A DNA stretch of 64,000 nt from a virus (taxonomy: Duplodnaviria > Caudoviricetes), in the IMG/VR virus record IMGVR_UViG_3300005841_000939, one strand, 5' to 3'. Below the pieces are notes generated by a model. It made no database searches and had not been told where the DNA came from. It saw nothing but the letters and a program-made list of their open reading frames with translations. This document shows, piece by piece, positions 8,201-29,981 of this stretch. Each line of letters opens with the position of its first letter. Position 1 is the first letter of the stretch. The translations under genes were made by a program, and so were the position numbers.

Positions 8201-8209
8201 AGTAATTCT

Positions 8210-8217
8210 TATTTATA
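8210..8217 (-). promoter_or_regulatory. Late promoter TATAAATA
   Basis: Exact match upstream of the ATG at 8200. Confidence 0.75.
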
Positions 8218-8270
8218 TTTTTTAGTTTGATTTATGATACAAAGTGTGTAGTTGTTAGAGTTCAATACAT

Positions 8271-11930: not shown

Positions 11931-11938
11931 TTAACCAC

Positions 11939-12409: not shown

Positions 12410-12457
12410 TTGTTCCCTAATTAAAATTTGTCTTAAATTATTATAATAAAAAAGACT

Positions 12458-12465
12458 TATTTATA
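12458..12465 (-). promoter_or_regulatory. TATAAATA upstream of the gp55-47-46 operon
   Basis: Exact late-promoter match about 50 nt before the gp55 ATG. Confidence 0.5.
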
Positions 12466-12482
12466 ACGGAATAGGAACTCCA

Positions 12483-13511
12483 ATGGCTGAATCAAAGAAA
12501 CTGCTTAACTTTCCCTCAGATAAGAATGGGTGTGGTTTCTATCGCACAATTATCCCTTTGGGATATTTGAGTGCAAAACTTGAATGGGATACAACATTTA
12601 TGTATCAATTCGTTTTTGATTTAAATCTTGTTCGCATGTCAGATTGGATCAGATTTCAACGTCAATGTACTGATAATCAAATGCGTTGTATTTGGGAATA
12701 CCGTAATTGTATTGATAAGACAGGTGGAAAATCTAGATTAGCATATGAATTAGATGACTTGGTACATGGAATTGAACCGCATAACGTTTTAGCTTACCAA
12801 TTCTATACACCAAAACGTAGAGAAAATGTTGTCAACATCATGAAAATGTCTAATGTTGTAACCTTTTCAACTCCATTTTTGAAGGATTTTTATCAACAAA
12901 ATTTTGGTATTAATCATTCAGTTGTAATTCCAAACTTTTTGCCAAAGTTCTTATGGAATCCTACATTTACTGATAAATCAGTGGGTGGTAAAAAGCCAAC
13001 TGTAGTTTGGGCTGGATCCGCATCGCATTGTGGTCCTGGTGGCGACTTAGAATTCATGATTCCTATGATTGAAGCAACCGTTGATGAATTTGATTGGCTG
13101 TTTATTGGCGTTGTACCTGAAAAGTTGAAAGGTAAAGTTCGCTTTATGCCATGGGTCAACTTTTGGGAATATCCAAGCATGATGCAAACCGTTCGTGCTG
13201 ACTGCGCTATTGCTCCAATTACAGACACAATTTTTAATATGGCTAAGAGTGATCTTAAATATAAAGAATTCGCTGCAATGAATATTCCTATCATTTGTTC
13301 AAGTATTGGAAATGGTAAAGGTCCATATGATTTGGCAAATGCTCCTTTGCTTGTTCAAAATGATCCTGATGCGTTTTATACAAAAATCAAGGAAGTAACT
13401 GAAAATGCTGCTCTTAAAGCAGATGTTTTAGCAAAACAGAGAGCGTACGTTGAACAAAATTGGTTTGAGAATCAATCCTCAATTGACTTATATGATCAAA
13501 CTTATCGTTGA
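12483..13511 (+). CDS. GT-B glycosyltransferase (phage GCGxYR type)
   Basis: SDKNGCGFYRTIIP, YELDD, VVWAGSASH, DCAIAPI..FN.AKSDLKYKEFAAM. Confidence 0.85.
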   Translation: MAESKKLLNFPSDKNGCGFYRTIIPLGYLSAKLEWDTTFMYQFVFDLNLVRMSDWIRFQRQCTDNQMRCIWEYRNCIDKTGGKSRLAYELDDLVHGIEPHNVLAYQFYTPKRRENVVNIMKMSNVVTFSTPFLKDFYQQNFGINHSVVIPNFLPKFLWNPTFTDKSVGGKKPTVVWAGSASHCGPGGDLEFMIPMIEATVDEFDWLFIGVVPEKLKGKVRFMPWVNFWEYPSMMQTVRADCAIAPITDTIFNMAKSDLKYKEFAAMNIPIICSSIGNGKGPYDLANAPLLVQNDPDAFYTKIKEVTENAALKADVLAKQRAYVEQNWFENQSSIDLYDQTYR

Positions 13512-13535
13512 TTGATCTAAAAATCCAACTACAAT
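13508..13535 (+). promoter_or_regulatory. Promoter TTGATT-N16-TACAAT overlapping the TGA stop
   Basis: Spacer counted by hand. Confidence 0.6.
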
Positions 13536-13537
13536 TG

Positions 13538-13568
13538 AATCCAACTTTACAATAGGTTGGGTTTTTTG
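13538..13568 (+). terminator. Intrinsic terminator
   Basis: AATCCAAC-loop-GTTGGGTT followed by a T tract. Confidence 0.7.
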
Positions 13569-13570
13569 TT

Positions 13571-14956
13571 ATGCGTATTGGTTTTTTAATATCTGATCAA
13601 CATTTTGGCGTTTGTGGTGGTATAGGTCAATTCGCTAAGAGTTTTTGTGAAATGGCTATTCGCCAAGGTTGGGTTGTTGATTTTATTGTTGATAAACCAA
13701 TTAGAAAACGTGAAGGTTCATTAGAAGATACTTTTGAAGCACATCAATTTTTTTATCCAACCAAGCCATTGTCATATGGGACTCACGCAAGCTATTTCCA
13801 GTTTGGTGATTCAATAAATCAAGAAAAAATCATAAATTTCAGAGATTCGGCAGTAAATGCATTGACTCATAATATTTACAATGTCTTTGTTGTAAATACT
13901 CCTGAAGGATTACCAGCATTACATACCCTTTGGGTACATAAACATGTTCCTATTGTATATTACACTCATATTGAAAATATGGTGTTCTTTGATAGTGATC
14001 GTAACGACACATTTCTTGATTCATTTAATCAACAAGTAACCAATTGGTTTACATTGGAGGGTGTTACTGTTGGTACACAGACTGAACAAAATAGAAAAAA
14101 CATTCTAGCAAAATATCCAAAAGCACGCGTGTTATCTTTGCCAATGTTTGTTCCTGAACAAGAGCTTTTGAAAAATAAAGAAACAAAACGTGAAGGTGTG
14201 TTATTCATCGGTAGACACGAACAAAGAAAAAATCCAACATTATTCATAAAAACATTAGTTGATATTAAGAAAAAATATGGTGTTGAATTACTTGCTAAAG
14301 TAATGACACGAGGAACGCATAAAGAAAAGTGGGAAGAAGCATTTGCTGAAGCAGGACTTAAAAACTATATATTGAAATTTGATATTATTGGTAAAGAAAA
14401 AGTTGATTTCATTCAAAGCGCAAAGGTAGCATTCCATCCTTCATTAAGAGAAAGTTTCGGATTTAGTGCCTTTGAAACTCTGCATTCATGCCGAACTATA
14501 TTGATTGAAGAGTTTGCTTGGTGGGAAAATTTTAAAGATTGGCCTAACTTGACTGTTTCTACCAAAGAAAAGGTAGTAGATGATGTTTTTACTCTTTATA
14601 ATTTAGATGCATATGATGCAGAAGAAATTAACAAATATTCAAAAAAAGTATATGACAATACACGATTGGAATGGGGTATGTTTTTTGAAGGTATTTTCAT
14701 GCAAGAAATACTCAATGAATCAGCAAACACATATATGGGAAGAAAAAATCAATTAACTGAATTGATGGATAATAACGATCAAATTAAAGTTTCGGAATAT
14801 TATGCAAATGGATTCCGACAAGATTTATTTGATAAGCTCATGCAGACAAGCAAGAAAAAATATAAGATATTCAATAAAAAAGGATATACTATATTATCAA
14901 ATAAAGACGCGATACGGTATGAAAATAATAATTCAATAACAGATTTGTTTTCTTAA
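13571..14956 (+). CDS. GT4-like glycosyltransferase
   Basis: GGIGQF, LFIGRHEQRKNP, PSLRESFGFSAFETL. Confidence 0.85.
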   Translation: MRIGFLISDQHFGVCGGIGQFAKSFCEMAIRQGWVVDFIVDKPIRKREGSLEDTFEAHQFFYPTKPLSYGTHASYFQFGDSINQEKIINFRDSAVNALTHNIYNVFVVNTPEGLPALHTLWVHKHVPIVYYTHIENMVFFDSDRNDTFLDSFNQQVTNWFTLEGVTVGTQTEQNRKNILAKYPKARVLSLPMFVPEQELLKNKETKREGVLFIGRHEQRKNPTLFIKTLVDIKKKYGVELLAKVMTRGTHKEKWEEAFAEAGLKNYILKFDIIGKEKVDFIQSAKVAFHPSLRESFGFSAFETLHSCRTILIEEFAWWENFKDWPNLTVSTKEKVVDDVFTLYNLDAYDAEEINKYSKKVYDNTRLEWGMFFEGIFMQEILNESANTYMGRKNQLTELMDNNDQIKVSEYYANGFRQDLFDKLMQTSKKKYKIFNKKGYTILSNKDAIRYENNNSITDLFS

Positions 14957-14959
14957 TTC

Positions 14960-14987
14960 TTGACGTGGAATTACAACAATTTAGAAT
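14960..14987 (+). promoter_or_regulatory. Promoter TTGACG-N16-TAGAAT, 9 nt before the folE ATG
   Basis: Spacer counted by hand. Confidence 0.7.
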
Positions 14988-14996
14988 GGATAACAT

Positions 14997-15620
14997 ATGA
15001 CGAAAATTAAAGCAAATGGTAATCAGCCTCTTACTGAAAAAGAATTGGCCAAAAAACAAAAGAAAATGGAAAAGGTCTTTCAAGACTTCTTTAAAGTTCT
15101 TGATTTTGATACAGAAAATGATCCTAATATTAAAGAGTCTTCACAACGCATGGCAAAAATGTGGGTTAGAGAACTCCTTGAAGGTAATTTCTCCGAAGAA
15201 CCAAAAATAACTACTTTTCCAAATCAACAAAACACAGACCAAATGATTATTTCTGGTCCTATCAAGGTTGATTCTGTATGTAGCCACCATGGAATTACAA
15301 TTGCCGGTTCATGCTATATCGCATACATTCCAGGTGACGAAGTTATTGGAATTTCAAAATTCTCAAGAATAGTTCGTTTCTTTAGTCGTCGTATGCAAAT
15401 TCAAGAAGAAATGACACAACAAATTTCTGATTACATACAAAACTTGATGAAGCCTAAGGGAATTATAGTGTTCATGAAGTGTCGTCACTTTTGCGAAATT
15501 GCCCGTGGTGTTAGAGAAGAAAATATCTGGATGACTACTTCATCCGTACAAGGTGTTTTTAAAGAAAACGCATCAGCAAGACAGGAATTCTTTAACTTGA
15601 TTAATGTAGGTAACAAGTAA
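14997..15620 (+). CDS. folE: GTP cyclohydrolase I
   Basis: RMAKMW, SVCSHH, IAYIP..IGISKFSRIVRFFSRRMQIQEEMT, HFCEIARG. Confidence 0.95.
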   Translation: MTKIKANGNQPLTEKELAKKQKKMEKVFQDFFKVLDFDTENDPNIKESSQRMAKMWVRELLEGNFSEEPKITTFPNQQNTDQMIISGPIKVDSVCSHHGITIAGSCYIAYIPGDEVIGISKFSRIVRFFSRRMQIQEEMTQQISDYIQNLMKPKGIIVFMKCRHFCEIARGVREENIWMTTSSVQGVFKENASARQEFFNLINVGNK

Positions 15621-15624
15621 TACA

Positions 15625-16926
15625 ATGGAATACCAATCAGATTTCATTTTTTTCCCTGCCATTTCAATTGCGACACATACGCAAATCATGAAGGCAGATT
15701 TCAAAGTTAAGGGTAAATCTCCAAGATTTTACTTAAATAGTCTTACAGATGATAAGAAGCTATTTAATCATCCTTATATTTTGACATCAGCAGCGCACAA
15801 CTTCAAGAATATAAATTTCATGAAGGATATTGGTGTTAATGATGTGAATAAAGATGTAAATCTGATTTTTGGTGACTCGGGTGGATTCCAAATCAAGACT
15901 GGAGTAATCAAAGATACACCAGAAATAAAGGATAAACTTTATACATGGATGGAAAACAATGTAACAATGGCACCAATCATTGATCATCCACCTACATATA
16001 ATGGAGATAAAGTATCAGAAAAAGATTTTGATGAATATTTGAATAAAACAAAAGAAAATATTGAATATCTTCAAAAGCGTCCAACAAAAAACAAGATTAA
16101 TTGGTTGAATGTTACCCAGGGCGTTCTTTATGAAGACCGTAAGAAGTGGTACGATGCTGTAAAGGACTATAACTTAGATGGTTGGGCTATGGGATCTTTA
16201 AGAAAAGATGCCAGAGTAATTCTAAATGCATTTGCTGTGTTCTTAGAAGGTGGTGAACTGGAAAAGAAAGATAGATGTAAACACATTCACTTCTTTGGTA
16301 TCACTGCAACCAAATACATGCCATTGATGATTTACATCAAGCATAAAATGCATCAAGCTGGATACAAAATTAACGTATCAATGGATAGTTCCTACGCAAC
16401 ACAAAATGGTGGTTGGGGAAAATTCCTATTCTCGCATAACGATTTTGAAGCCATAAATTCAATTGATAATAAAGAGTCATATTTGAGTTCAGAAAAATCA
16501 AAAGGATTCCTATCTTACCATTTGAGTAACAGACTTATTGGAAAGGTTAATGGTGATGTAAATCTTCCATGCTATTGCCCTGTATGTACTGGTATTAAAC
16601 TAAAAGATATTTTAAATGACAATGCGTTAAAAACTGTTGGTGAGTCGTATTACTATAATGTTGTTCAATCACATAACGTGTTCGTTTTAAAAGAATATGT
16701 GAATAGTCTTCAAAATATTATTTACACAAATTCATATGACCTGTACAGTAGCGCATTTAGAAGTTATGATGTATATTTGTTCAAATTAATTGATAAAATG
16801 TTTGATAATCCAAAACAAGCAAGTTATTTAATTGCAAGTGAAGGTGAAAGACTTTCAGATAGAGAAGAACAAGATAAAGCCCAAGAAAAAGAGGGTGAAG
16901 ATATGAAAAATGAGTTCTTTGAATGA
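15625..16926 (+). CDS. dpdA: TGT-family (DpdA/ArcTGT-like) 7-deazaguanine transglycosylase
   Basis: GDSGGFQ, IDHPP, VTQG, WAMGS, HIHFFG, SMDSS, Zn site LPCYCPVC..HN; adjacent to folE. Confidence 0.8.
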   Translation: MEYQSDFIFFPAISIATHTQIMKADFKVKGKSPRFYLNSLTDDKKLFNHPYILTSAAHNFKNINFMKDIGVNDVNKDVNLIFGDSGGFQIKTGVIKDTPEIKDKLYTWMENNVTMAPIIDHPPTYNGDKVSEKDFDEYLNKTKENIEYLQKRPTKNKINWLNVTQGVLYEDRKKWYDAVKDYNLDGWAMGSLRKDARVILNAFAVFLEGGELEKKDRCKHIHFFGITATKYMPLMIYIKHKMHQAGYKINVSMDSSYATQNGGWGKFLFSHNDFEAINSIDNKESYLSSEKSKGFLSYHLSNRLIGKVNGDVNLPCYCPVCTGIKLKDILNDNALKTVGESYYYNVVQSHNVFVLKEYVNSLQNIIYTNSYDLYSSAFRSYDVYLFKLIDKMFDNPKQASYLIASEGERLSDREEQDKAQEKEGEDMKNEFFE

Positions 16927-17843
16927 ATATGTTATTACATACTACAGGAAAAAGAGACATTGAAGAAATAGAGTGGTGTCCAACATTAGTTAAACCTGAT
17001 GAAATTATGATAAAAACTTGGGCATGTGGTGTATGTCGTAGCGATGTTGCTGCATATGCTGGATGGGAAAAACCAATGCCTTTTGGTCAACAAGGACATG
17101 AGGGGCTTGGGACTGTTACTGCTATTGGTTCAGATATTTTAAATGTAAAAATTGGTGATTATGTTGCAACATGGTCAGATCCTGCATATTCTGATTTTTA
17201 TAAAGCAAAAGTTGGTGAATATGTAAAAGTTCCAGAATTGAAAAAGGATTATATTCTTCAACCATCAGCATGTGCGATCAATATTGCTAGAAAGTTTTTA
17301 GCACAAGCAAGATATGGATGGCCAATTTTAATTATTGGTTCAGGATTTATGAGCTTGATTATTGGACAATACTTAAAAATACTTGGTAGAGAAGTAGTTG
17401 TGGCAGGGTCATCACATAAGTCTGAATGGGATAAAATAGGTATACCATTAACATCAGTGAATGAACTTGTTGAAAGTGGAAAGAAGTGGAAAGGTATCAT
17501 TGATTTAAGTAGTAAAGCTGAAAATTTTGATTTAATCAGTAAACATCTTGGTGATGTTGAAGCAGTTATTTGTTATGCTGCAACACCATTTACTCCTGTA
17601 ACTACAAATTTCTTTGATTCGTGCTGGAATTGTCATACATTCATCATGCCAAGTCCAAGAAATAAAGATTTCAATGACATGATGAGATTGACCGCAGAAT
17701 TAATTTCTTTAAACAGAATAACAGTTGGCAATTATTGGACGCAAGAATACAATAGATCATCTATGACCGAAGTTAAACAAGCATTTGAAGACGGAGTCAA
17801 TCGTCCAAGTGGTTATTTACGCGGCTACATTCGCTGGAACTAA
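16923..17843 (+). CDS. Zn-dependent medium-chain dehydrogenase/reductase
   Basis: CGVCRSD, GHEGLG.V..IG..V.IGD.V, IIGSGFM; structural-zinc lobe absent. Confidence 0.8.
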   Translation: MNMLLHTTGKRDIEEIEWCPTLVKPDEIMIKTWACGVCRSDVAAYAGWEKPMPFGQQGHEGLGTVTAIGSDILNVKIGDYVATWSDPAYSDFYKAKVGEYVKVPELKKDYILQPSACAINIARKFLAQARYGWPILIIGSGFMSLIIGQYLKILGREVVVAGSSHKSEWDKIGIPLTSVNELVESGKKWKGIIDLSSKAENFDLISKHLGDVEAVICYAATPFTPVTTNFFDSCWNCHTFIMPSPRNKDFNDMMRLTAELISLNRITVGNYWTQEYNRSSMTEVKQAFEDGVNRPSGYLRGYIRWN

Positions 17844-17845
17844 TT

Positions 17846-18913
17846 ATGAACGTTTATATTATGGCCCTTGAGGCAATTGAAAGTCGTTATACCTGGTATT
17901 GGGAAACAGAATTAGAAAAACGTATTAATGAATATATTAAAAACGATATAACTCTTAATGAAAAAAATATAAAAGTAATAACTTTAAAAGGTGATGATGA
18001 AGATAATGAAGTAGTAGCTACCCAAGGTGCATTTCTAAATTTCACAACAACAAATGCATGGAAAAATAGTCAGATGAATAAGCTAATTGGCTTATTTAAG
18101 AGTGGTGAAATAAAACCAAAAGATAAAATAATATTTCCTGATGCATGGCATCCTGGTATAATTCAAGTTAGATACATCAGTGAATTGACTAAAGTACCTG
18201 TATCAATTTATTCACTTTGGCATGCTGGTAGTTATGATTATCAAGATTTTTTAGGTAGAGAAATTCAAGATAAAAGTTGGGTAAGACACGCAGAAGCAGC
18301 ATTCTTTGATGCATCTGATTACAATTTATTTGCTACTAGATTTCATAAATCAATGTTTATGCAAACATTTAAATATAGAGTAAATAAGAATAAAGCGCAT
18401 ATTGTAGGATTTCCATTTCAATATATAAAAGATGTTAAGCAACCTGAAGTAATTAAAGAAAACATTATTCTGTTTCCACATAGAATAAGTTCCGAAAAAC
18501 AACCACAAGTATTTAAAGAATTGGCAAAGCGTATTCCAGAATATCAATTTATAATTTGCCAAGAAAAGAATTTATCTAAAACGCAATATGGTAATTTGCT
18601 TGCTAGATCAAAAATGGTATTCTCTGCGAATCTACAAGAGACACTTGGTATTTCATGCTATGAAGGTGCAGTAAACGGAGCATTACCCTTCGTTCCTGAT
18701 AGATTATCATATAAAGAAATGTATCCAAAATGGTGTCAGTATGAAGGATATTTAACTGGCGGTAGTTTGGAATCACGATATTTAGATATTTTATCATTTA
18801 TGGTGAAGGATATGCTCGCAAATTATGATGAACATGCAAAGAAATTGCCAAGTTTGGTGAAACGTCTAGATCGTTTCTTTACAATGGATAAAATGTTACA
18901 GGTTATATTTTAA
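17846..18913 (+). CDS. GT-B glycosyltransferase of the type found beside phage folE/queD-like genes
   Basis: LEAIESRY..W, DAWHPG, WHAGSYD.QDFL, FPHRISSEKQP, LQETLGISCYEG. Confidence 0.75.
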   Translation: MNVYIMALEAIESRYTWYWETELEKRINEYIKNDITLNEKNIKVITLKGDDEDNEVVATQGAFLNFTTTNAWKNSQMNKLIGLFKSGEIKPKDKIIFPDAWHPGIIQVRYISELTKVPVSIYSLWHAGSYDYQDFLGREIQDKSWVRHAEAAFFDASDYNLFATRFHKSMFMQTFKYRVNKNKAHIVGFPFQYIKDVKQPEVIKENIILFPHRISSEKQPQVFKELAKRIPEYQFIICQEKNLSKTQYGNLLARSKMVFSANLQETLGISCYEGAVNGALPFVPDRLSYKEMYPKWCQYEGYLTGGSLESRYLDILSFMVKDMLANYDEHAKKLPSLVKRLDRFFTMDKMLQVIF

Positions 18914-18917
18914 TAAT

Positions 18918-19094
18918 ATGAAAATAAAATATGATCTTTCTTATAAACATGTAGCTGGTGTTGGACCACTACCTCATATAACATTGGATTTGGATTTTAC
19001 TATAGAAGAAAAACCAATCTTGATGGAAGTGTTAGAAGAAATTAAAACCGCAACAATCATTAAGAGAAAAAATGAAAATAACAGTAAAAACTAG
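18918..19094 (+). CDS. Small hypothetical protein, 58 aa (not in the ORF track)
   Basis: ATG..TAG fills the gap in the operon and overlaps the next start. Confidence 0.55.
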   Translation: MKIKYDLSYKHVAGVGPLPHITLDLDFTIEEKPILMEVLEEIKTATIIKRKNENNSKN

Positions 19095-19425
19095 TTTCCC
19101 AGGTATTCATCGTTGGAAAGATGCTCCCGAACAAGTGGATTTTCTACGAAGTTTCCACAGACATATTTTTAACATTTCTTTTTCTCTTGAAGTGACTCAT
19201 GCTGATAGAGAGCTTGAATTCTTTGTATTAAAATCAGCAGTAGATTCATATATTGATGCTAAGTGGTCAAATTATAAAAATAACCATAATTTGAAATTTT
19301 TTGGAGATGATTCTTGTGAATCTCTTGCGTTAGCTATAAAAACTTTTCTTGAAACTGAATACGGTTCTGGTAGAAAAGTATCTGTAAAAGTTCAAGAAGA
19401 TGATGAAAATTATGGTGAAGTATGA
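19072..19425 (+). CDS. QueD paralog of T-fold type, DpdL-like
   Basis: GIHRW..FLRSFHRHIF = LxxxHRHxF instead of the QueD CxxxHGH; RELEF, SCE, EDDEN. Confidence 0.75.
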   Translation: MKITVKTSFPGIHRWKDAPEQVDFLRSFHRHIFNISFSLEVTHADRELEFFVLKSAVDSYIDAKWSNYKNNHNLKFFGDDSCESLALAIKTFLETEYGSGRKVSVKVQEDDENYGEV

Positions 19426-19880
19426 ATGAAAGTAAATTAATTACAGCCTTTGATATGGATGGCGTTATTGTATCCGATATTAATATGGATTATAATAATC
19501 CCGAGCAACTTGAAAAAATAAAACAAATTCGTATGGTTTGTGAACCAATTTTCAGACCACATGGCACATTTGTTATCATTACCGGTCGTCCAGAAAATGA
19601 GCATGATCAGACTTGGCAATGGCTGGAAATGTATAATGTAAAACCACAAAGAGTTTTCTTTAAACCAGAGCAATACGATTTCTCAAAACAATCAATAATT
19701 GATCATAAGGCAAGAACTATTCGTGAGTTGAATAGAACATTATACTATGGGTATGTCACAAAATTTGTTGAAAGTGATAAAACTCAAGTTGAAGGTATTT
19801 CTAAGCAAGTTGATATTCCTGTAATTCATTTTCCAGTATTTTCAAGCAATGCGTTAGTACATGCAGGATGGTGGTACTAA
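19422..19880 (+). CDS. HAD-superfamily phosphatase
   Basis: FDMDGV, ITGR, K, FVESD motifs I-IV. Confidence 0.8.
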   Translation: MNESKLITAFDMDGVIVSDINMDYNNPEQLEKIKQIRMVCEPIFRPHGTFVIITGRPENEHDQTWQWLEMYNVKPQRVFFKPEQYDFSKQSIIDHKARTIRELNRTLYYGYVTKFVESDKTQVEGISKQVDIPVIHFPVFSSNALVHAGWWY

Positions 19881-20168
19881 ATGCCAAAATATACACCTGA
19901 TGAACTTAATAAATTGCTTTTTAATAAAGTAAATCAAGCTATTAGTTTACATGCAATAGGTGATAATAAAAAGTCCGCAATTACATTAGCAAGTGCTGCC
20001 AGAATTCTTGATCGTTGGGATCGTTTAGTCAAAAATCCACCAGTAAAGAAAGAAAAACATATTGAAGAAAGTGTTGTAGAAAATGATCCAGGACGACGGC
20101 AGAGAGAAGGAACTGATAAAAAAGTTCAAACTGAAACAAGCTCCGAGTCGGAAACGTCAGGATCTTGA
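19881..20168 (+). CDS. Hypothetical protein
   Basis: ORF abutting the HAD stop; 3' end overlaps the next gene. Confidence 0.55.
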   Translation: MPKYTPDELNKLLFNKVNQAISLHAIGDNKKSAITLASAARILDRWDRLVKNPPVKKEKHIEESVVENDPGRRQREGTDKKVQTETSSESETSGS

Positions 20169-20730
20169 CGCTTTTTTGCATTATAAGCGTATCAGTTATG
20201 ATTTTGAATTAAAATCAACAACAGTTGGTGATGTTTCAACTGCAAGTCCAGTGACAATTGATCACATTAAAAAATGGCGTCATATACATTGGTTAATTGG
20301 AATTTATGATGAAACCACTGTTAAATTAAAACATGTTTTATATGCTAGTCCTGATATGATGACCGATTGGTTGAATGCACAAGAAGAAGATATTCAACGC
20401 GGTCTAACAATTTCACATGCGCTAGCTGGAAAAATTGATTACGACCTACTTTTTAAAATATTTGGAGAGAAACCTTTCTATACATTTGAAGAAGCTAAAA
20501 AGGTCTACAAGAAATTGTGGACTAAAAACGAATATATGTTGATGTCAGATATTCCTGGTGGATATTCATCAGAAACTATGTTGAAAATGTTCCAGGATCA
20601 CAACTTATCTTATATGATAAGAGGTAGCTTCTTAAATAATCCCAAGATAACGAAAAAGTATACCGATAAGTTCATTAAAATAGATGGTGATTTTGCTAGA
20701 ACACTGCGTAAAATCATTAGTCCAACGTAA
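20083..20730 (+). CDS. PvuII-like type II restriction endonuclease (PD-(D/E)xK)
   Basis: QDDG, R.DLDA, FELKS, VST, KKWR.IHWLIGIY, LNNPKI..KY are colinear with PvuII QDNG, REGNDA, YELKS, FST, AKYRQVPWIFAIY, INNPKIPVKY as recalled. Confidence 0.7.
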   Translation: MIQDDGREKELIKKFKLKQAPSRKRQDLDAFLHYKRISYDFELKSTTVGDVSTASPVTIDHIKKWRHIHWLIGIYDETTVKLKHVLYASPDMMTDWLNAQEEDIQRGLTISHALAGKIDYDLLFKIFGEKPFYTFEEAKKVYKKLWTKNEYMLMSDIPGGYSSETMLKMFQDHNLSYMIRGSFLNNPKITKKYTDKFIKIDGDFARTLRKIISPT

Positions 20731-20744
20731 CAAAGGGAAAATAT

Positions 20745-21173
20745 ATGTCAGAAGAAAAAGAAGATAAACCAAAAAAGATGTTCGTTATTGAGCACATTAT
20801 TTGGGATGATGGCGAGGTTGATTCAACAATGTGTGAATTCCGTAAATCAAATTCTGGTAGAGGAGCTCCTAAAAAATGGAATCTAGGTCCAAAAGATTTT
20901 CATCGCCGCGTGGAAGAGTTATTGGGTGCATCAGATCAGATAAATGAAATCTTGTCACAAAATACAGGACTTGTGGATATTTCATCCGTTAGCGTTAAAC
21001 AAGTTCTTCTTGATGATGTTGAAGAGGAGCCATCAACACCACAACATATAGTGGATGACGAAGAAAATAAACCACAAGAAAAACCAGCCAAAAAAGATAA
21101 AAAGTCAAAAGAAGCTAAGTCAAGTTCAGACGAAGGCTTAGATGACATCAATTTTGGTGAGTTTGACAAGTAA
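20745..21173 (+). CDS. Acidic hypothetical protein
   Basis: ORF with a SD (AGGGA); charged tail. Confidence 0.7.
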   Translation: MSEEKEDKPKKMFVIEHIIWDDGEVDSTMCEFRKSNSGRGAPKKWNLGPKDFHRRVEELLGASDQINEILSQNTGLVDISSVSVKQVLLDDVEEEPSTPQHIVDDEENKPQEKPAKKDKKSKEAKSSSDEGLDDINFGEFDK

Positions 21174-21212
21174 TTTTCATATATAATAACACAACAAACA
21201 AACGAGTAGTCA

Positions 21213-23804
21213 ATGACCTTTTCTTCAGTATCCTTTTCACCATTCAGCACAAAAATCCATTGTTGGGAATATGATGCTCAAGGCAATAAAGTTCATATTG
21301 AAGAAAAGGCACCGTTTTACTTCTTCATGAAAAATGATGAAGGTTCTTTTACAAGTATCTTCGGTGATAAACTCAAGAAAATTGAGTTTGAAAATTATGG
21401 TAAAATGAAAGAGACGCGTGAAATGTTTAAAGCTGCCAACAGACAGCTTTTTGAATCAGATGTTGATATTCCAAATAGATTTGTATTGGATAGATATAGC
21501 AATCAAGAAATTAAGAATATACCAAAATATGACGTATTCTTTATTGACATTGAAGTTCACTCGGAAGAAGGTTTCCCTGATCCAGATTTAGCTGAACATC
21601 CTATTACTATTATTACGGTATATTCAACTAAAAAAGAAAAGCTGTATGTTTTCAGTGAAAAAGATTTTGATAGATCATTCTTACCAGAAAATGCTTGGGT
21701 TAAAATATTTGATACAGAAGAGGAACTATTAAAGTCCTTTGTCGCGTTCATTAGAAAACTTCATCCTGACTTTTTAAGTGGTTGGAATAGTAGTGGTTTT
21801 GATATTCCTTATATCATAAATCGTGCTTATAAGATAATTGGTGAAGAAGAGACGCGGAAAATGAGTCCTGTCAAATACATCAAAGAAGTTAAAAAGAAGA
21901 TGCGATTTGGTAAGGAAAAGACAACATACGAAATTGCAGGTATTAACTGCATTGACTATTTAGATTTGTATCGTAAGTATCATCAAGGTGAACAAGAATC
22001 ATTCAAACTTGGTTATATTGCAAAAGTTGAAATTGGTGAAACTAAGTTGGAATTTGAAGGTACTTTGCGCGATTTGTATTTGAAGAATTGGCAGCGATAT
22101 GTTGAATATAACGTACAAGACGTTATGATTTTGGTAAAAATTGACAAGCGTATTAAGTTCATGGATTTGATGATTGGTATTTGCTTGAATTGCCGTGTTC
22201 CATTTGAACAGTTTGATAAAACCACGCGCGTTTTGGATGGAGCATTCATTTCACGCCTAAGTACTGAGAATACCATTCTTCCAGATGTTCCTCCACAAGA
22301 CGGTAACGATCAATATGCAGGTGCTTTCGTTCGTGATCCTGATGTTGGTATGCATGATTGGGTTGTTTCATTTGACGCAACATCTCTCTATCCATCAATT
22401 ATGATTCAACATAACATTTCACCTGAAACAAAGGTAATGGTTGTACATGATCAATTTGTTCCAGATATTTTTGACGCATTAGAAGGTAAACCTGTTGATG
22501 AAGGTACATTGAATCTTTTCTGTTTTGAAAACATGAAGATGAAAGATGTTATTGCCAAAATTAAAGAAAATGAATGGACTATTGCGGCTAATGGCGCAAT
22601 TTATCGTCATGATAAAAAAGGTGTTGTCGCATCATTCGTTAAAGATTGGTTTGATAAGCGTAAATATCACAAAAAGCTCATGCAAGTAGCTCAAACTGAA
22701 GAAAACGAAGATGAAGAACAATTGCAAAAAGGTCTTCAACAAAACTATAAGATCCTGATTAACTCAGTTTATGGATATGTTGGTAGTAAGTACAGTCGCT
22801 TATATGATCGTGATAATGCATTAGCGGTAACAATTACTGGTCAAGAAGTATTGAAGTCTGGTATGGCTGCTATTGATTTGTATTTCAAAGAGCGTTGGCC
22901 AACTACAGAGACTGGTAAGAAATTAAATGCGCAGTCAATTCCATCAACTTTGATATATGGTGACACTGACTCATTGTATTTGAATATCGGAAAGGTATTG
23001 AAGTCAATCAACTATAATTGGGAAGATGCTGCAAAGACTAAAGAATTTGTAGAAAAGAAAATAGAACCTTTGCTATTCAAGATCATCAACAATGCGATGG
23101 AAATCTTGACCATGAAACGCATGAATACCAAAGATTGCAAGATTTCATTCAAACGTGAAATGATAGCACGTAGAGCAGTATTCTTGAGCAAAAAACACTA
23201 TGCTGCTTGGATCATGAAATTGGAAGAAGAAGAAGTTAAGCCAGGTTCAAAGCATGAAATTGAAGCTAAGGGCCTTGAAATGGTTAAGTCTTCAACTCCT
23301 GAAATTATTAGAGATTTCATGAGAAATTATATTCTCCACTTTCTAAAAACTGCTGATTTAAAAGAATCAAACAATACGATTAGCGCAATTTATGATAAAT
23401 TTAAAGCAAGTGAATTCGCCAAGATTGCAAAAATCACAAACGTCAATAACATTGATGAATATACTGGATCAGATGGTAATCCAATTAAAGGTACACCAGG
23501 ACACGTAAAAGCAACTATACATTACAATAACCTTTTAATAAGAAATGGTTGTGCAAATGACTACCAAAAGATTTTTGAAGGTGATAAAGTTAAATTGGTG
23601 TACTTAAAAAATAGTAATCCATATGGTATTGATGCTATTACATTTAAGGACGTTATTCCAACAGAGTTTGGCTTGGATGGGTACGTAGATTATGATATAA
23701 TGTGGGAGAAAGTATTCATTGAACCAATCCGTCAATTCTATGATGTAATGCGTTGGGAAATGCCAGCTTTCGATAAAGAAAACATAGACGATTTATTTTG
23801 TTAA
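21213..23804 (+). CDS. gp43: Family B DNA polymerase
   Basis: DIE, GWNSSGFDIPY, YNVQD, DATSLYPS, KILINSVYG, YGDTDS, KKHY. Confidence 0.98.
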   Translation: MTFSSVSFSPFSTKIHCWEYDAQGNKVHIEEKAPFYFFMKNDEGSFTSIFGDKLKKIEFENYGKMKETREMFKAANRQLFESDVDIPNRFVLDRYSNQEIKNIPKYDVFFIDIEVHSEEGFPDPDLAEHPITIITVYSTKKEKLYVFSEKDFDRSFLPENAWVKIFDTEEELLKSFVAFIRKLHPDFLSGWNSSGFDIPYIINRAYKIIGEEETRKMSPVKYIKEVKKKMRFGKEKTTYEIAGINCIDYLDLYRKYHQGEQESFKLGYIAKVEIGETKLEFEGTLRDLYLKNWQRYVEYNVQDVMILVKIDKRIKFMDLMIGICLNCRVPFEQFDKTTRVLDGAFISRLSTENTILPDVPPQDGNDQYAGAFVRDPDVGMHDWVVSFDATSLYPSIMIQHNISPETKVMVVHDQFVPDIFDALEGKPVDEGTLNLFCFENMKMKDVIAKIKENEWTIAANGAIYRHDKKGVVASFVKDWFDKRKYHKKLMQVAQTEENEDEEQLQKGLQQNYKILINSVYGYVGSKYSRLYDRDNALAVTITGQEVLKSGMAAIDLYFKERWPTTETGKKLNAQSIPSTLIYGDTDSLYLNIGKVLKSINYNWEDAAKTKEFVEKKIEPLLFKIINNAMEILTMKRMNTKDCKISFKREMIARRAVFLSKKHYAAWIMKLEEEEVKPGSKHEIEAKGLEMVKSSTPEIIRDFMRNYILHFLKTADLKESNNTISAIYDKFKASEFAKIAKITNVNNIDEYTGSDGNPIKGTPGHVKATIHYNNLLIRNGCANDYQKIFEGDKVKLVYLKNSNPYGIDAITFKDVIPTEFGLDGYVDYDIMWEKVFIEPIRQFYDVMRWEMPAFDKENIDDLFC

Positions 23805-23816
23805 AGGAAAAATAAC

Positions 23817-24965
23817 ATGGCTAGAACTAAAAAACAAGTAGACGAACCTCAAGAAGTTGTTGATGTCGTCAAAACAGTAAATAAAGCAAAAGACTTTCTC
23901 AAGAAATATAACAAGAGCGCATATGCCTCAGTTCTAAGTGAAAGTAGAATCAGTAATGTAACTGATTGGATTTCATCGGGATCATTTTCATTGAATCGTG
24001 TTCTCAGTGGTTCATATATTAAGGGATTTGCAAACAATCGCCTATATATCATTGCTGGACCATCAAGTACAGGTAAATCACTTCTTTGCGCAAGAGCTTG
24101 TAAAGAAGCCCAATCAAAGGGATACACCATCTTTTACTTTGACTCAGAAAATGCAATTGATAATGAATTTATGCAACGTTTCGGTGTAGATACTGATGCA
24201 TTGATCTATATTCCAGTTAAGACAATTTCAGAATTCAGAAATACCGCAGTTCAAATGATGAAGGACTGGCGTACAGATGAAGCAACAAAAGATTCTCCTG
24301 CATTATTCTTCTGTGACTCTTTGGGTGGCATGATGGGTACTAAGGAAGCAAATGACGTTGTAGAAGATAAACACGCATCTGATATGGGACAACGTGCTAA
24401 AGAATTGCGTGCATGTGCCCGCGTTCTCACAATTGAATGTGCTCACCACATGATTCCAATGATTTGTACAAATCACACATACGAACAAGCAGCAGCAAAT
24501 CCACAAGCAGCACCAACAACAGTCATGTCAGGTGGTCAAGGATTCTTCTACGCTGGTTCAGCAATCATTTACTTGAAGAAGCGTCAAGTTAAAGAAGATG
24601 GAAAAAATGCTCTCGGTGATACTGTTAAGACAAAGACAGGTAATATCATCATTGCAACTGCTGAAAAGAATCGTTTCGTTCCAGAAGGTACGAAAGGTGA
24701 AATCTATTGTGACTTTGAACGTGGCATTCAAAAATGGTATGGCCTTCTTGAAGATGCTGTAAAACATGGATTCATTGAAAAGCGTTCAACACGTCTTTAT
24801 GTCAAGCATTTAGACAAGAGTTTCTTTGAATCACAAATTTTCACCAAAGAAGTATTTGAACCAATTTTTGATGAACTCAATAAAAAGGTTGAAGAAGATT
24901 TGAGATTCAGTATCACAGTTGATGATACTGAAGAAGCACCAGAAGTTGACGAAACACCAGCTTGA
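23817..24965 (+). CDS. uvsX: UvsX/RecA-like recombinase
   Basis: GPSSTGKS, FDSE, DSLG, NHTY, SGGQG. Confidence 0.95.
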   Translation: MARTKKQVDEPQEVVDVVKTVNKAKDFLKKYNKSAYASVLSESRISNVTDWISSGSFSLNRVLSGSYIKGFANNRLYIIAGPSSTGKSLLCARACKEAQSKGYTIFYFDSENAIDNEFMQRFGVDTDALIYIPVKTISEFRNTAVQMMKDWRTDEATKDSPALFFCDSLGGMMGTKEANDVVEDKHASDMGQRAKELRACARVLTIECAHHMIPMICTNHTYEQAAANPQAAPTTVMSGGQGFFYAGSAIIYLKKRQVKEDGKNALGDTVKTKTGNIIIATAEKNRFVPEGTKGEIYCDFERGIQKWYGLLEDAVKHGFIEKRSTRLYVKHLDKSFFESQIFTKEVFEPIFDELNKKVEEDLRFSITVDDTEEAPEVDETPA

Positions 24966-24989
24966 TTGCTGGTGTTTCCAACTTAAACT
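24962..24989 (+). promoter_or_regulatory. Promoter TTGATT-N16-TAAACT overlapping the uvsX TGA
   Basis: Spacer counted by hand. Confidence 0.65.
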
Positions 24990-25031
24990 TATCTATTCAC
25001 TGACTTTAAAATAACTAGAGACAACACCTAA

Positions 25032-26498
25032 ATGACAAGCACATCAAAATTAGAAGGTTATATCATTAAGAATTTAATGGTTAACAACAGTTTTACATTG
25101 AATTATCTGCAAAAACTTCATCCAGATTTTTTTAGTGATAAGTATAAAGAAATTATTAAAGGTATTCATGCCTTTTATAAGAAAAATCAAAGATCACCAA
25201 ACAAAGAAATTCTTTGTGATATAATCCTTCCAAAAGTTATTTCTTCTGACGATAAGAAATTAGCAGCTACGATTGATCTTGTTGAAAGTATTGGTTTAGT
25301 AACTATTGAAACCACTGATCTAAAAATAATTGAAGAAGAAACCCAATTATTCATCAAGAGAAATGTTTATATTAAGGCAATTACTGACGGTGTTGACCTA
25401 ATTAAATCAAATAAATTTGATGAAATCGTTTCTTTATTTGATAGTGCTCTTGAAAAGCTTTCTTTTAATGATGATTTTGGTTTGGATTATTTCTCTGATT
25501 TAGAAGGTAGATTAGAACGTGCTGCAACATTGAACGAAGCAACATCAACAACATATCCAAGTCTAGATAGATTGATGGGTGGTGGTTATCGCAGCAAAGC
25601 GTTGTTCATTTATGCTGGCCCTGCAAATACTGGTAAAACATTGGTATTGAATGACAGTGCAGCAAACTTGGTAATGCAGGGTAAGAATGTTGTTTATTTT
25701 ACCCTAGAATTAGCACAAGATTACATTGCACAAAGAACTGACGCAAAATATTCACAAGTAAGCATGAATGAAATTAATGCTTCGCCCGAAATGGCTTTGA
25801 AGAAAGCTATTTTGAAACGTGATGAAAATAAAACAAAGAACAAGAAGGTTGGAAAGTTAATTTATAAGTATTACGGTCCAAACACTGTTAGTTCAAATGA
25901 TATGTATGCTTTGATAAAAAATATGGAAATGAAAATGGGGATAAAGTTTGACTTTGTTTTCGTTGACTATCTCAAATTATTAAAACCAAATGGAAAATTG
26001 TATTCCGATAACATGTATGGAAAGTTGGAAGCTGTATGCCAAGAATTGAGAGGTATGGCTGCTGAATTGGATGTATGCGTAGTAACAGCATCACAAACAA
26101 CTAGAGATTCTTATAATTCAAATCAAATAGGTATGGCACAAATGTCAGACTCTTTGGGTATTGCTCAAACTGCTGACGTGATCATTACTTTAATTAGAAA
26201 TGATCAAATGAATGAACAAAATTTGATGATGTTGCAATTGGCTAAGAGTCGTTTTAGTAGAAATGAAGGTAGCGTAACTATGAAGGTAGATTATGATTAC
26301 ATGAGATTAATTGATGTTGATGAAAAAGATGGTCAAACAAATCTTAGAAAGAACATAACTATTGCTGGACCAAAAAATGTTAAGCAAGAAAAGAAAGAAG
26401 TACGGGTCAGAGTTGCAGAAGGTGATGAAGATTACGAAAATTCACCAATCCCAAAGACGACTCCAAAGGCAACAACACAAGTTGAAGAAGTTTTCTAA
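25032..26498 (+). CDS. gp41: Replicative DnaB-like helicase
   Basis: GPANTGKT, TLELA, VDYLKL, ASQTTR, SDSLGIAQTAD, KSRF. Confidence 0.95.
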   Translation: MTSTSKLEGYIIKNLMVNNSFTLNYLQKLHPDFFSDKYKEIIKGIHAFYKKNQRSPNKEILCDIILPKVISSDDKKLAATIDLVESIGLVTIETTDLKIIEEETQLFIKRNVYIKAITDGVDLIKSNKFDEIVSLFDSALEKLSFNDDFGLDYFSDLEGRLERAATLNEATSTTYPSLDRLMGGGYRSKALFIYAGPANTGKTLVLNDSAANLVMQGKNVVYFTLELAQDYIAQRTDAKYSQVSMNEINASPEMALKKAILKRDENKTKNKKVGKLIYKYYGPNTVSSNDMYALIKNMEMKMGIKFDFVFVDYLKLLKPNGKLYSDNMYGKLEAVCQELRGMAAELDVCVVTASQTTRDSYNSNQIGMAQMSDSLGIAQTADVIITLIRNDQMNEQNLMMLQLAKSRFSRNEGSVTMKVDYDYMRLIDVDEKDGQTNLRKNITIAGPKNVKQEKKEVRVRVAEGDEDYENSPIPKTTPKATTQVEEVF

Positions 26499-26506
26499 AG
26501 TAGGTG

Positions 26507-26534
26507 TTGTATTGTAAATCCCTGATGCTATAAT
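26507..26534 (+). promoter_or_regulatory. Promoter TTGTAT-N16-TATAAT
   Basis: Spacer counted by hand. Confidence 0.65.
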
Positions 26535-26585
26535 TGTTGCAATCGCTCAACACTTTAGAATGTAAAATTCTAAAACAGAGAGCGG

Positions 26586-26924
26586 ATGCAAATAATGAGT
26601 AATAATCAAAAACGTATAGAAAAAGAATTAACATACGAGGAGATAGGAAAGAAAATAGGCATAAGCCCACAGCAAGTGCATAAAATTGAAAAGGACGCTT
26701 TAAACAAAATCATCAGAATGATGAGAAATTGTAGTCCTAACAATACTATTTTTGAAATATTATTTGCCGTTAGCGATCATCTTGGTATAAGCTTAGAACA
26801 GCTTTATAACAAGTTAGATAAAGAGAATTTGGATGTTCTTGGCCTTTTTGTGCAAGAGCAATATGGTAAGACGATAGAAGGTTGGTCACCTGATGAAAAT
26901 CCTTTAGAAAAGTTTTTTGCATAA
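26586..26924 (+). CDS. Sigma70 region-4-like HTH protein in the T4 gp33 position
   Basis: LTYEEIGKKIGISPQQVHKIEKDALNKI; precedes gp59-like and gp32. Confidence 0.7.
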   Translation: MQIMSNNQKRIEKELTYEEIGKKIGISPQQVHKIEKDALNKIIRMMRNCSPNNTIFEILFAVSDHLGISLEQLYNKLDKENLDVLGLFVQEQYGKTIEGWSPDENPLEKFFA

Positions 26925-27538
26925 TGAATGGATGGCAATTACAATCTTTGTGTAGATCAATGAATGGATGGGCTAAGGTTCCATTAGATAGTTATCTAGT
27001 TTCTTCTGATAAGCCATTTTTTGAAATGTTAAATGAATATTTGTTTAGAACACGTCATTTATCAGACGAAGAAATTCGTGATTTTGTAAGAGCCAACTAT
27101 AATTTTTCAATTACTTCATATGAACCTCATGATTTAATGGAAGATAATGCTTGGGAAATATATATTCAATGGAAAACGGATTATTCCTCTCTAAGTCTTT
27201 ACTATGACACGATTAAAAAAAGTTTTAATTTCATTGAAAACTTCGTTATAAATAGTAGTATAGATATTGAACAATATAAAGAGTCTTTCGCTAAGAAACA
27301 TATTAGGGATAGAACTATAGATTGGTCAGTAGCTGTTCATTTAAAACTAGTAAATATAAAGTCATTAAACAAGGCTGACAAAATCTTGTTGAAAGACTAT
27401 CTAAAAAGTAATAAAATAATAACACAACGTTTGTTAACAAGTTCCGAACTCAAAAATCTTATGGTTAATGAAGAAGAACAAATGAAAAAGACGATTGAAA
27501 CATTCAGGCAAAAGTTTCAGCAGTCTATAAACAAGTAA
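26924..27538 (+). CDS. Helicase loader gp59-like
   Basis: DKPFFE..EIRDFVRANY..DL...AWEIY.QWK..SLS.YY; directly upstream of gp32 as in T4. Confidence 0.55.
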   Translation: MNGWQLQSLCRSMNGWAKVPLDSYLVSSDKPFFEMLNEYLFRTRHLSDEEIRDFVRANYNFSITSYEPHDLMEDNAWEIYIQWKTDYSSLSLYYDTIKKSFNFIENFVINSSIDIEQYKESFAKKHIRDRTIDWSVAVHLKLVNIKSLNKADKILLKDYLKSNKIITQRLLTSSELKNLMVNEEEQMKKTIETFRQKFQQSINK

Positions 27539-27564
27539 ATTGCCGGTAAAGAAAGAAGTATGTC

Positions 27565-28581: not shown

Positions 28582-28640
28582 TTAGCACACATTGCTAATC
28601 AAAGGGGGCTGGGTATAATATTACTCAGTCCTTTTTTGTT
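28581..28640 (+). terminator. Hairpin followed by an intrinsic terminator after gp32
   Basis: ATTAGCA-cacat-TGCTAAT, then GGGGCTGGGTA-loop-TACTCAGTCC and a T tract. Confidence 0.85.
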
Positions 28641-28656
28641 TTAACGAGGTTGAGAG

Positions 28657-29974: not shown

Positions 29975-29981
29975 GATATAA

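What the first reader, a model, noticed from the sequence alone, without database searches (positions are those of the whole stretch)
20083..20730. Orphan PvuII-like endonuclease in a phage region that appears purged of CAGCTG
Seen: the ORF keeps a PD-(D/E)xK core (DLDA..FELKS) and the colinear segments QD, ST and NNPK, which in PvuII (as recalled) hold the catalytic and DNA-reading residues. The PvuII His83-85 stretch is replaced by ASP. No DNA methyltransferase gene is present in the window. A line-by-line scan by eye found no CAGCTG in 64 kb. One-mismatch neighbours were frequent (roughly 30 CAGCT[T/A/C], roughly 40 [A/T/G]AGCTG), and other palindromes occur (AAGCTT 4001, GGATCC 4485, GAATTC 4665, CAATTG 13532, CATATG 14994). 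In NCA-Ala-G codon contexts the phage repeatedly uses GCA rather than GCT. Inference: a phage-encoded restriction enzyme that cuts host or competitor DNA, with self-protection by site elimination rather than methylation.
Basis: partly seen in the sequence, partly recalled or inferred. Interest (0 to 1): 0.88.

Follow-up and report, generated by a model that had tools for sequence, protein, structure and literature searches.

The report
Lone PvuII-like restriction enzyme in phage
A giant soil phage carries a restriction enzyme of the PvuII type with no protective methylase, and it can do so because its DNA has none of the two short palindromes the enzyme most plausibly cuts; whether the enzyme caused that loss is only partly supported.

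Summary
The window has no DNA methyltransferase and no CAGCTG (expected 7-13).

- In bacteria the same family sat beside a C5 cytosine methylase in every full-length copy examined, 22 loci. In 16 phage sequences from at least three independent lineages it is always solitary.
- Over 902 kb, those phages have 0 CAGCTG (expected 86-126) and 2 CACGTG (expected 41-59). About 1 Mb of ordinary T4-like phage DNA has normal counts.
- CAGCTG is not the only missing palindrome in the window: GATATC, AGATCT and CACGTG are also absent.
- A sister clade, and one nested relative that lost the gene, lack the enzyme at its conserved slot and still have 0 CAGCTG. They do keep CACGTG.

So loss of CAGCTG may predate or be independent of the gene, and loss of CACGTG tracks the gene better. 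The true cleavage site (CAGCTG, CACGTG or both) and the biological role (host or rival DNA destruction) are inferred, not shown. I rate this a new variant of a known kind.

The parts
20083..20730 (+). Gene for the solitary PvuII-fold type IIP restriction endonuclease (215 aa). Catalytic residues are D29, E42 and K44. DNA-reading elements are Q3-D4, S52-T53-(A-S-P) and N185-N186-P187-K188. Residues about 90-182 form a helical insert that PvuII lacks.
1..64000 (.). The whole window is free of CAGCTG and CACGTG. It is also free of GATATC and AGATCT, which vary among relatives and look host-specific.
19881..20168 (+). Small lysine-rich ORF whose end overlaps the enzyme's start by 86 nt. Relatives carry an 86-101 aa ORF in the same place, overlapping the enzyme's start by 4-17 nt. 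Conservation is poor and the role is unknown.
20745..21173 (+). Conserved acidic 142-aa protein between the enzyme and the DNA polymerase. It is also present in relatives that lack the enzyme, so it is a synteny anchor and not a partner of the enzyme.
21213..23804 (+). Family B DNA polymerase. It is the downstream anchor of the conserved slot that holds the enzyme gene.
12483..13508 (+). Glycosyltransferase. It is the upstream anchor of the slot. In relatives without the deazaguanine cluster it lies directly before the enzyme or, in gene-less relatives, directly before the polymerase.
14997..19880 (+). 7-deazaguanine-type DNA modification cluster (FolE, TGT/DpdA-like, dehydrogenase, glycosyltransferase, QueD-like, HAD) inserted upstream of the enzyme. 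It is context only: the enzyme also occurs without this cluster in G001, G002, L155 and L156.

Best explanation
The gene encodes an active, Mg-dependent, probably dimeric type IIP restriction endonuclease of the PvuII lineage. A clade of soil jumbo phages carries it without any modification enzyme.

Its target is most likely one or both of the CA-SS-TG palindromes, CAGCTG (the PvuII site) and CACGTG. The phage chromosome contains neither, so the enzyme cannot harm its own genome. It can cut any unmethylated DNA that carries the sites, such as the host chromosome or co-infecting phages and plasmids.

Shown here: the fold, the catalytic residues, solitary status in phages against R+M pairing in cells, and the absence of both words.

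Inferred: catalytic activity, the exact site, and the biological use. The most likely use is fragmenting host DNA for the neighbouring gp46/47-type exonuclease and ribonucleotide reductase to recycle, as T4 does with EndoII/IV. Excluding rival phages is the alternative.

The loss of CAGCTG probably came before, or is maintained independently of, the gene. Being site-free is the condition that lets a phage keep a lone restriction enzyme. Loss of CACGTG appears to accompany the gene.
For: Fold and homology:
- AlphaFold2 model with pLDDT 91.5.
- Foldseek top 12 hits are all PvuII, E about 2e-5.
- VIA-align gives Z 13.2-14.4, rmsd 2.0-2.5 A over about 120 residues; the next fold scores Z 9.5.
- The family profile hits PvuII chains at E 1.4e-3, and 3e-7 for the fused dimer.
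- Shorter relatives found at E about 1e-22 to 1e-25 pass Pfam PF09225.
- D29, E42, K44 and NNP are invariant in 25 sequences.

Pairing:
- 17 of 18 bacterial loci, 4 higher-GC viral-catalogue contigs and 1 assembly have an orthologous C5 MTase directly beside the gene; the 18th locus holds only a truncated copy.
- No phage copy has one. There is no PF00145 hit in G001-G005, including the 92%-complete 332-kb G001.

Site loss:
- Of all 2080 hexamer classes, only CAGCTG and CACGTG are absent from all 10 first-examined enzyme phages.
- Over 16 sequences and 902 kb the counts are 0 vs 86-126 and 2 vs 41-59.
- CAGCTG is the only palindrome significantly depleted in all 5 large genomes.
- 1.0 Mb of T4-like controls has 206 and 110. 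G006, 597 kb without the gene, has 36 CAGCTG.

Independence:
- The enzyme tree needs 3 switches between paired and solitary states.
- G004 shares only this gene with the others, and CAGCTG is its most depleted palindrome.
- Contigs with the R+M pair keep the sites.

Retention: the gene sits in a conserved slot before the polymerase in 10 or more clade members at about 50% identity.
Against: - Clade B (9 contigs, 156 kb) and G024, which is nested in clade A, have the slot empty and no homolog by tblastn. They still have 0 CAGCTG, against about 18 and 4-11 expected. The CAGCTG purge therefore cannot be credited to this gene alone. These contigs are 6-34% complete, so a copy elsewhere in those genomes is not excluded.
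- L157 carries the gene and has 2 CACGTG.
- The window protein alone fails Pfam and PDB sequence searches.
- PvuII's His83-85 loop and N-terminal dimerisation helices are missing, so the specificity cannot be read from homology.
- These phages avoid many other palindromes, as is typical of host-restriction pressure.
- I have no activity, expression or host data.
- Only 64 kb of a genome of at least 380 kb could be examined.
Confidence: 0.68

Rival explanations
1. Host-driven avoidance came first and the gene is a passenger. Hosts of this phage group carry restriction systems that cut CAGCTG (and CACGTG), so the phages lost the sites for the ordinary reason. The endonuclease half of such a system was later captured and is tolerated because no sites remain. 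It may give little or no benefit.
For: - The gene-less sister clade B and G024 also have 0 CAGCTG.
- The same genomes lack other palindromes that differ from phage to phage.
- The family is a normal R+M pair in bacteria of several phyla.
Against: - The gene is kept at one slot, with invariant catalytic residues, across a deep clade (about 50% identity). That argues for selection on function.
- Other avoided sites turn over among clade members, whereas CAGCTG never reappears.
- CACGTG loss distinguishes gene-bearing clade A from gene-less clade B.
- Three independent solitary lineages all lack CAGCTG, and none carries a CACGTG site, though in the smaller ones the expected CACGTG count is too low to test.
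Confidence: 0.17
2. Self-protection is by base modification. The adjacent 7-deazaguanine pathway replaces G in the phage DNA, and this, rather than site loss, shields the genome from its own nuclease. The pathway would then act as a restriction-modification pair with an unusual modification.
For: The gene ends a co-directional run that starts with folE and a TGT/DpdA-like gene in the window, L001-L003, L157, L159 and L160.
Against: - G001, G002, L155 and L156 carry the enzyme but have no match to the window's FolE, DpdA-like or QueD-like genes.
- There are no candidate sites left to protect.
Confidence: 0.05
3. The gene is a free-standing homing endonuclease or another selfish mobile nuclease lodged beside the polymerase gene. 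It would have a long, degenerate target in gene-less relatives.
For: - It lies in an intergenic slot next to DNA polymerase that is empty in clade B and in G024.
- A PD-(D/E)XK homing enzyme, I-Ssp6803I, appears among the weaker fold matches at Z 8.8.
Against: - Its closest relatives are bona fide R+M partners.
- Within clade A it is nearly universal and evolves at about the pace of core genes.
- A long-target enzyme would not go with genome-wide loss of 6-bp palindromes.
Confidence: 0.05
4. The protein is an inactive or re-purposed DNA-binding protein that has lost cleavage activity.
For: A lone restriction enzyme is normally lethal. The recognition loop and the dimerisation region differ from PvuII.
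Against: The catalytic D, E and K and the NNP motif are invariant across 25-37 sequences, including all phage copies.
Confidence: 0.05

Closest known systems
R.PvuII (Proteus hauseri; Pfam PF09225; type IIP, CAG^CTG)
   Same: - Same fold: Z 14.4, rmsd 2.0 A over 119 residues, 23% identity.
- Same D...E-x-K catalytic triad.
- The S-T and N-N-P-K DNA-contact segments fall in the same order.
   Different: - It lacks PvuII residues 1-31, the dimerisation helices.
- It has an insert of about 90 helical residues.
- His83-85 is replaced by A-S-P in phage clade A or V/A-R-D in cellular copies.
- The cellular partner is a C5 methylase. M.PvuII is an N4-cytosine enzyme (textbook knowledge).
- The window protein does not reach Pfam's threshold on its own.
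PacI of Pseudomonas alcaligenes, a solitary restriction enzyme whose host genome lacks its site (cited in PMC3488263)
   Same: A restriction enzyme with no methylase that is tolerated because the carrier genome has no recognition site.
   Different: PacI is a bacterial HNH enzyme with an 8-bp AT-only site in a GC-rich genome. Here the carrier is a phage, the sites are 6-bp words expected dozens of times per genome, and the trait is kept across a clade.
Virus-encoded complete R-M systems of chloroviruses and marseilleviruses (PMC7253447)
   Same: A virus carries a type II endonuclease of bacterial origin. The proposed uses are degrading host DNA or excluding co-infecting viruses.
   Different: Those viruses always carry the cognate methylase next to the endonuclease and methylate their own DNA. 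Here there is no methylase and no site.
T4 EndoII (denA) / EndoIV (denB) host-DNA degradation with the gp46/47 exonuclease
   Same: This is the proposed logic, not homology. An early phage nuclease cuts host DNA but not phage DNA, and the fragments feed nucleotide salvage. gp46/47-like and RNR genes lie 9-17 kb upstream in the window.
   Different: T4 tells self from host by hydroxymethylcytosine. This phage would do so by lacking the site. The function is untested here.

Membership tests
PvuII endonuclease family (PF09225) | PvuII-type PD-(D/E)XK fold | tested here: met
   Foldseek's top 12 hits are all PvuII, E 1.7e-5 to 1.6e-4. VIA-align gives Z 13.2-14.4, rmsd 2.0-2.5 A, with model residues 1-201 on PvuII 32-157; the next fold scores Z 9.5.
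PvuII endonuclease family (PF09225) | Sequence match to the family model | tested here: inconclusive
   The window protein has no PF09225 or PDB hit at E<=1 or E<=10. 3 of 25 relatives hit PF09225, best 1.7e-7. The family profile hits PvuII at 1.4e-3. Shorter relatives linked at about 1e-22 to 1e-25 pass the gathering score.
PvuII endonuclease family (PF09225) | Catalytic Asp...Glu-x-Lys (PvuII D58, E68, K70) | tested here: met
   D29, E42 and K44 align to them and are invariant in 25 sequences.
PvuII endonuclease family (PF09225) | His83-His84-His85 loop that reads the central G:C pairs | tested here: not met
   It is replaced by A-S-P in phage clade A and by V/A-R-D in cellular and other phage copies.
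PvuII endonuclease family (PF09225) | N-terminal helical dimerisation subdomain (residues 1-31) | tested here: not met
   Model residue 1 aligns with PvuII residue 32. A helical insert at about 90-182 is present instead.
PvuII endonuclease family (PF09225) | Cleavage of CAG^CTG | not testable with these tools
   Only indirect evidence exists. CAGCTG is absent from all 16 enzyme-bearing phage sequences, but it is also absent from gene-less relatives. CACGTG is an equally live candidate.
Type II restriction-modification system | Cognate DNA methyltransferase encoded with the endonuclease | tested here: not met
   The window has none. No C5 MTase is found in G001-G005. G001 has one unlinked N6/N4 MTase 113 kb away. 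Cellular relatives do meet this feature: 17 of 18 bacterial loci, plus L005, L006, L007, L012 and L158.
Solitary restriction enzyme tolerated through absence of sites (PacI-type situation) | No methylase, and no recognition site in the carrier genome | tested here: met
   CAGCTG is 0 in the window and in the whole records G001-G005. CACGTG is 0 in the window and in G001-G004. This assumes the site is one of these two words, and the rest of this phage's genome was not available.
Free-standing homing endonuclease | Patchy presence among close relatives, with a long target in the empty allele | tested here: inconclusive
   The slot is empty in G024 and in clade B. The gene is nearly universal in clade A, and its nearest kin are R-M enzymes. 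The target length cannot be tested here.

The most novel reading that the evidence does not exclude
A lineage of soil jumbo phages wields restriction without modification. A PvuII-derived enzyme with a re-modelled recognition loop cuts both E-box-type palindromes, CAGCTG and CACGTG, which would be a specificity not known for any characterised enzyme. It destroys host or rival DNA, and the phage is immune because it has erased both words. Related phages that lack the gene may have erased CAGCTG as a counter-measure against their armed cousins.
Probability: 0.25. Interest if true: 0.8.

Novelty: new variant of a known kind. Interest (0 to 1): 0.6.

Why it matters
Restriction enzymes are thought of as bacterial defences that need a partner methylase. 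This family is a normal R+M pair in bacteria. Phages have taken only the cutting half at least three separate times, and each time in genomes that lack the candidate sites.

If the enzyme is active, a virus can use restriction offensively and make itself immune through sequence composition alone. That would be a cheap alternative to the base modifications used by T4-like phages.

The family also offers a natural series of recognition-loop variants (His-His-His, Val-Arg-Asp, Ala-Ser-Pro, Ala-Arg-Asn) on one scaffold. That series could help in studying how type IIP specificity shifts. The family is missed by NCBIfam and largely by Pfam.

Tried and rejected
- Whole genome of the window: not held. 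Exact look-up of the window's protein failed.
- GenBank phages: no DNA or protein match to the locus or the enzyme. The closest cultured relatives share no more than 35% topoisomerase identity, so no cultured control exists.
- Single-sequence Pfam, PDB and NCBIfam searches: negative. PADLOC gave only a weak REase_II hit, E 6e-4.
- Reading the site from host genomes: CAGCTG and CACGTG are both low in the 17 R+M-bearing genomes, but so are the control words. In one cyanobacterial order CACGTG is rare in all 61 genomes, with or without the pair. This was not decisive.
- Gapped palindromes (3-bp half-sites, gaps 0-8): none is fully absent apart from the two hexamers.
- A second shared gene that could explain CACGTG: G004 shares only the enzyme with the other four genomes.
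- Acidic downstream protein as an inhibitor or partner: rejected, because it also occurs in gene-less relatives.
- Promoter and terminator scan: fewer promoter-like sites than in shuffles, so uninformative.
- Literature: I found no paper describing a solitary phage type II enzyme protected by site loss. The library is incomplete.
- Sequencing runs: only rhizosphere and soil DNA metagenomes hold the stretch, with no RNA runs.

Full report
**1. The observation**

The plus-strand ORF 20083-20730 encodes 215 aa. Its start is supported by a family-wide conserved N-terminus.

CAGCTG is absent from the 64-kb window. Three kinds of expectation all predict several copies:
- dinucleotide shuffles: mean 6.8;
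- Markov orders 1-4: 7.5-13.5;
- synonymous-codon shuffles of 77 ORFs: 10.6 +/- 2.9, never below 2 in 1000 shuffles.

All five quoted palindrome positions and the neighbour counts are correct.

**2. What the protein is**

Alone, it matches nothing in Pfam or the PDB. It has 47 close homologs, and about 377 clusters at 50% identity match a family profile.

Links to PvuII:
- The family profile finds PvuII chains at E 1.4e-3, and 3e-7 for the fused dimer. The alignment puts D29/E42/K44 on PvuII D58/E68/K70, S52-T53 on S81-T82, A-S-P on H83-H85, and NNPK on N140-K143.
- Shorter relatives reached at about 1e-22 to 1e-25 pass PF09225's threshold.
- An AlphaFold2 model (pLDDT 91.5) retrieves PvuII as its top 12 Foldseek hits.
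- VIA-align gives Z 13.2-14.4, rmsd 2.0-2.5 A, with model residues 1-201 on PvuII 32-157. The next fold scores Z 9.5.

Differences from PvuII:
- PvuII's N-terminal dimerisation helices are missing.
- A helical insert of about 90 residues is present.
- The His triplet is replaced.

NCBIfam has no model for the family.

**3. Paired in cells, solitary in phages**
- Four higher-GC contigs from the viral catalogue have a C5 cytosine methylase directly beside the gene (PF00145, E 1e-50 to 6e-56).
- 17 of 18 bacterial genome loci have the orthologous methylase convergent and abutting. These come from Cyanobacteriota, Chloroflexota, Actinomycetota, Nitrospirota and Margulisiibacteriota. The exception is a truncated gene. 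One further assembly shows the same pairing.
- None of the phage copies has it.
- G001-G005 have no C5 methylase. G001, which is 92% complete, has one unlinked N6/N4 methylase.
- The window has no DNA methylase.
- On the enzyme tree the solitary state needs three changes: the jumbo-phage clade, G003, and G004/G005.

**4. Site loss goes with the solitary gene**

An unbiased scan of all 2080 hexamer classes over the first ten enzyme-bearing phage sequences (808 kb) found only two words missing from all of them, CAGCTG and CACGTG.

Counts by group:

| Group | Size | CAGCTG (obs vs exp) | CACGTG (obs vs exp) |
|---|---|---|---|
| 16 enzyme-bearing phage sequences | 902 kb | 0 vs 86-126 | 2 vs 41-59 |
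| T4-like metagenome loci without the gene | 1.0 Mb | 206 vs 142-207 | 110 vs 85-89 |
| G006, a distant relative without the gene | 597 kb | 36 observed | not counted |

- The hybrid word CACCTG/CAGGTG is about 2-fold depleted in the enzyme-bearing set (101 vs 178-208). In the T4-like controls it is not depleted (523 vs 242-474).
- Whole-record counts of CAGCTG are zero in G001 (332 kb), G002 (198 kb), G003, G004 and G005.
- CAGCTG is the only palindrome significantly depleted in all five large genomes. The other avoided palindromes differ from genome to genome.
- G004 shares only this one gene with the others, and CAGCTG is its most depleted palindrome.
- Contigs with the R+M pair retain both words.

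**5. The complication**

A tree built from polymerase, UvsX and DnaB-like helicase shows the following:
- Clade A holds ten enzyme-bearing phages, including the window.
- G024 is nested inside clade A. In G024 the glycosyltransferase|polymerase slot is empty, which implies secondary loss.
- Sister clade B holds nine contigs whose slot is only 100-475 bp and holds no homolog.

| Group | CAGCTG (obs vs exp) | CACGTG (obs vs exp) |
|---|---|---|
| Clade A (enzyme present) | 0 vs 64-85 | 2 vs 28-44 |
| G024 (gene lost) | 0 vs 4-11 | 0 vs 1-3 |
| Clade B (slot empty) | 0 vs about 18 | 5 vs 4-11 |

Within this natural experiment the loss that tracks the gene is CACGTG. CAGCTG loss is a trait of the wider group. 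The gene-less contigs are only 6-34% complete, so a copy elsewhere in those genomes cannot be ruled out. L157 carries the gene, with an A-R-N loop, and has two CACGTG sites.

**6. Reading the site**

Three sub-hypotheses remain.

(a) The enzyme cuts both palindromes. It would have a relaxed centre after losing the histidines, while keeping the Asp that in PvuII reaches the central pair from the minor groove. That role is known from the D34G PvuII structure, 3PVI. This fits all the solitary lineages and the 2-fold hybrid depletion. It leaves clade B's CAGCTG loss to another cause, and L157 as an exception.

(b) Loop variants differ in specificity. V-R-D copies, which include all the cellular ones, would cut CAGCTG. 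A-S-P copies (clade A) would cut CACGTG.

(c) The enzyme cuts CAGCTG only, and CACGTG loss is coincidental.

I rank (a) and (b) about equal, and both above (c). Host-genome word counts could not settle this.

**7. Context and likely use**

The window is part of a T4-related jumbo phage from rhizosphere metagenomes. Earlier notes from this scan put the genome at 380 kb or more.

The gene lies in the replication module, co-directional with the polymerase. gp46/47-like nuclease genes lie 8-11 kb upstream and ribonucleotide reductase 13-17 kb upstream.

A 7-deazaguanine cluster sits just upstream in the window and in some relatives. It is absent in G001, G002, L155 and L156, which still carry the enzyme. 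So the nuclease is not an obligate part of that operon, and modification is not what protects these genomes.

By analogy with T4 EndoII/IV plus gp46/47, host-DNA fragmentation for nucleotide salvage is the most economical role. Exclusion of site-bearing rival phages is the alternative, as proposed for marseillevirus R-M systems (PMC7253447). Both are inference.

**8. Novelty**

A solitary enzyme tolerated because its carrier genome lacks the site has a bacterial precedent in PacI (cited in PMC3488263). Viruses with complete R-M systems are also known (PMC7253447).

I found no description of a phage lineage that keeps only the endonuclease and is site-free.

Verdict: a real feature and a new variant of a known kind.

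One of the 17 host genomes counted (G011) is flagged unpublished. No claim here depends on it alone.

Noticed in passing
window:1-64000: Besides CAGCTG and CACGTG, the window has 0 GATATC (expected 17-25), 0 AGATCT (8-19), TCGA 2 vs 75 and CTTAAG 1 vs 8-15. These differ among relatives and look like host-specific restriction avoidance.
   Followed up: partly
window:20745-21173: A conserved acidic 142-aa protein (WDDGE...SGRGAP..KW core, acidic tail ending NFGEFDK) sits just upstream of the DNA polymerase in clade A and in gene-less relatives (L058, L061, L068, L113, G024). It has no family match. It may be a replisome accessory factor.
   Followed up: partly
window:19881-20168: A small lysine-rich ORF overlaps the endonuclease start by 86 nt. 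Relatives carry an 86-101 aa ORF overlapping the start by 4-17 nt, with barely detectable similarity. It could be a coupled regulator or nothing at all.
   Followed up: partly
G003 (L041-L044); G001 (L014-L030): Extreme 4-mer avoidance: G003 has GATC 0 vs 248 and GGCC 0 vs 45; G001 has TGCA 103 vs 825 and CTAG 128 vs 523.
   Followed up: no
window:14997-19880; L001, L002, L003, L157, L159, L160: The folE / TGT(DpdA-like) / QueC / QueD-like cluster lies next to the endonuclease in only part of clade A. It is missing from G001, G002, L155 and L156, so it looks like an insertion into the glycosyltransferase|endonuclease junction.
   Followed up: partly
G001:126534-128294; G002:174781-176514; G024:49996-51726; L002:9879-12032: In these relatives the match to the window's DNA polymerase stops at about residue 590 in one piece. 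This suggests a split gene, or an intein or intron, in the polymerase. L160 has a UvsW with Hint/intein domains.
   Followed up: no
G013, G019, G029-G087 (61 genomes of one cyanobacterial order): CACGTG is very rare (2-371 copies in genomes of 3-9 Mb) whether or not the genome holds the R+M pair. GTCGAC and GTGCAC are often near zero as well.
   Followed up: partly
G072:C5:6392-6631: A decayed remnant of the endonuclease gene (74 aa open, with 3 stop codons) in one cyanobacterial genome.
   Followed up: no
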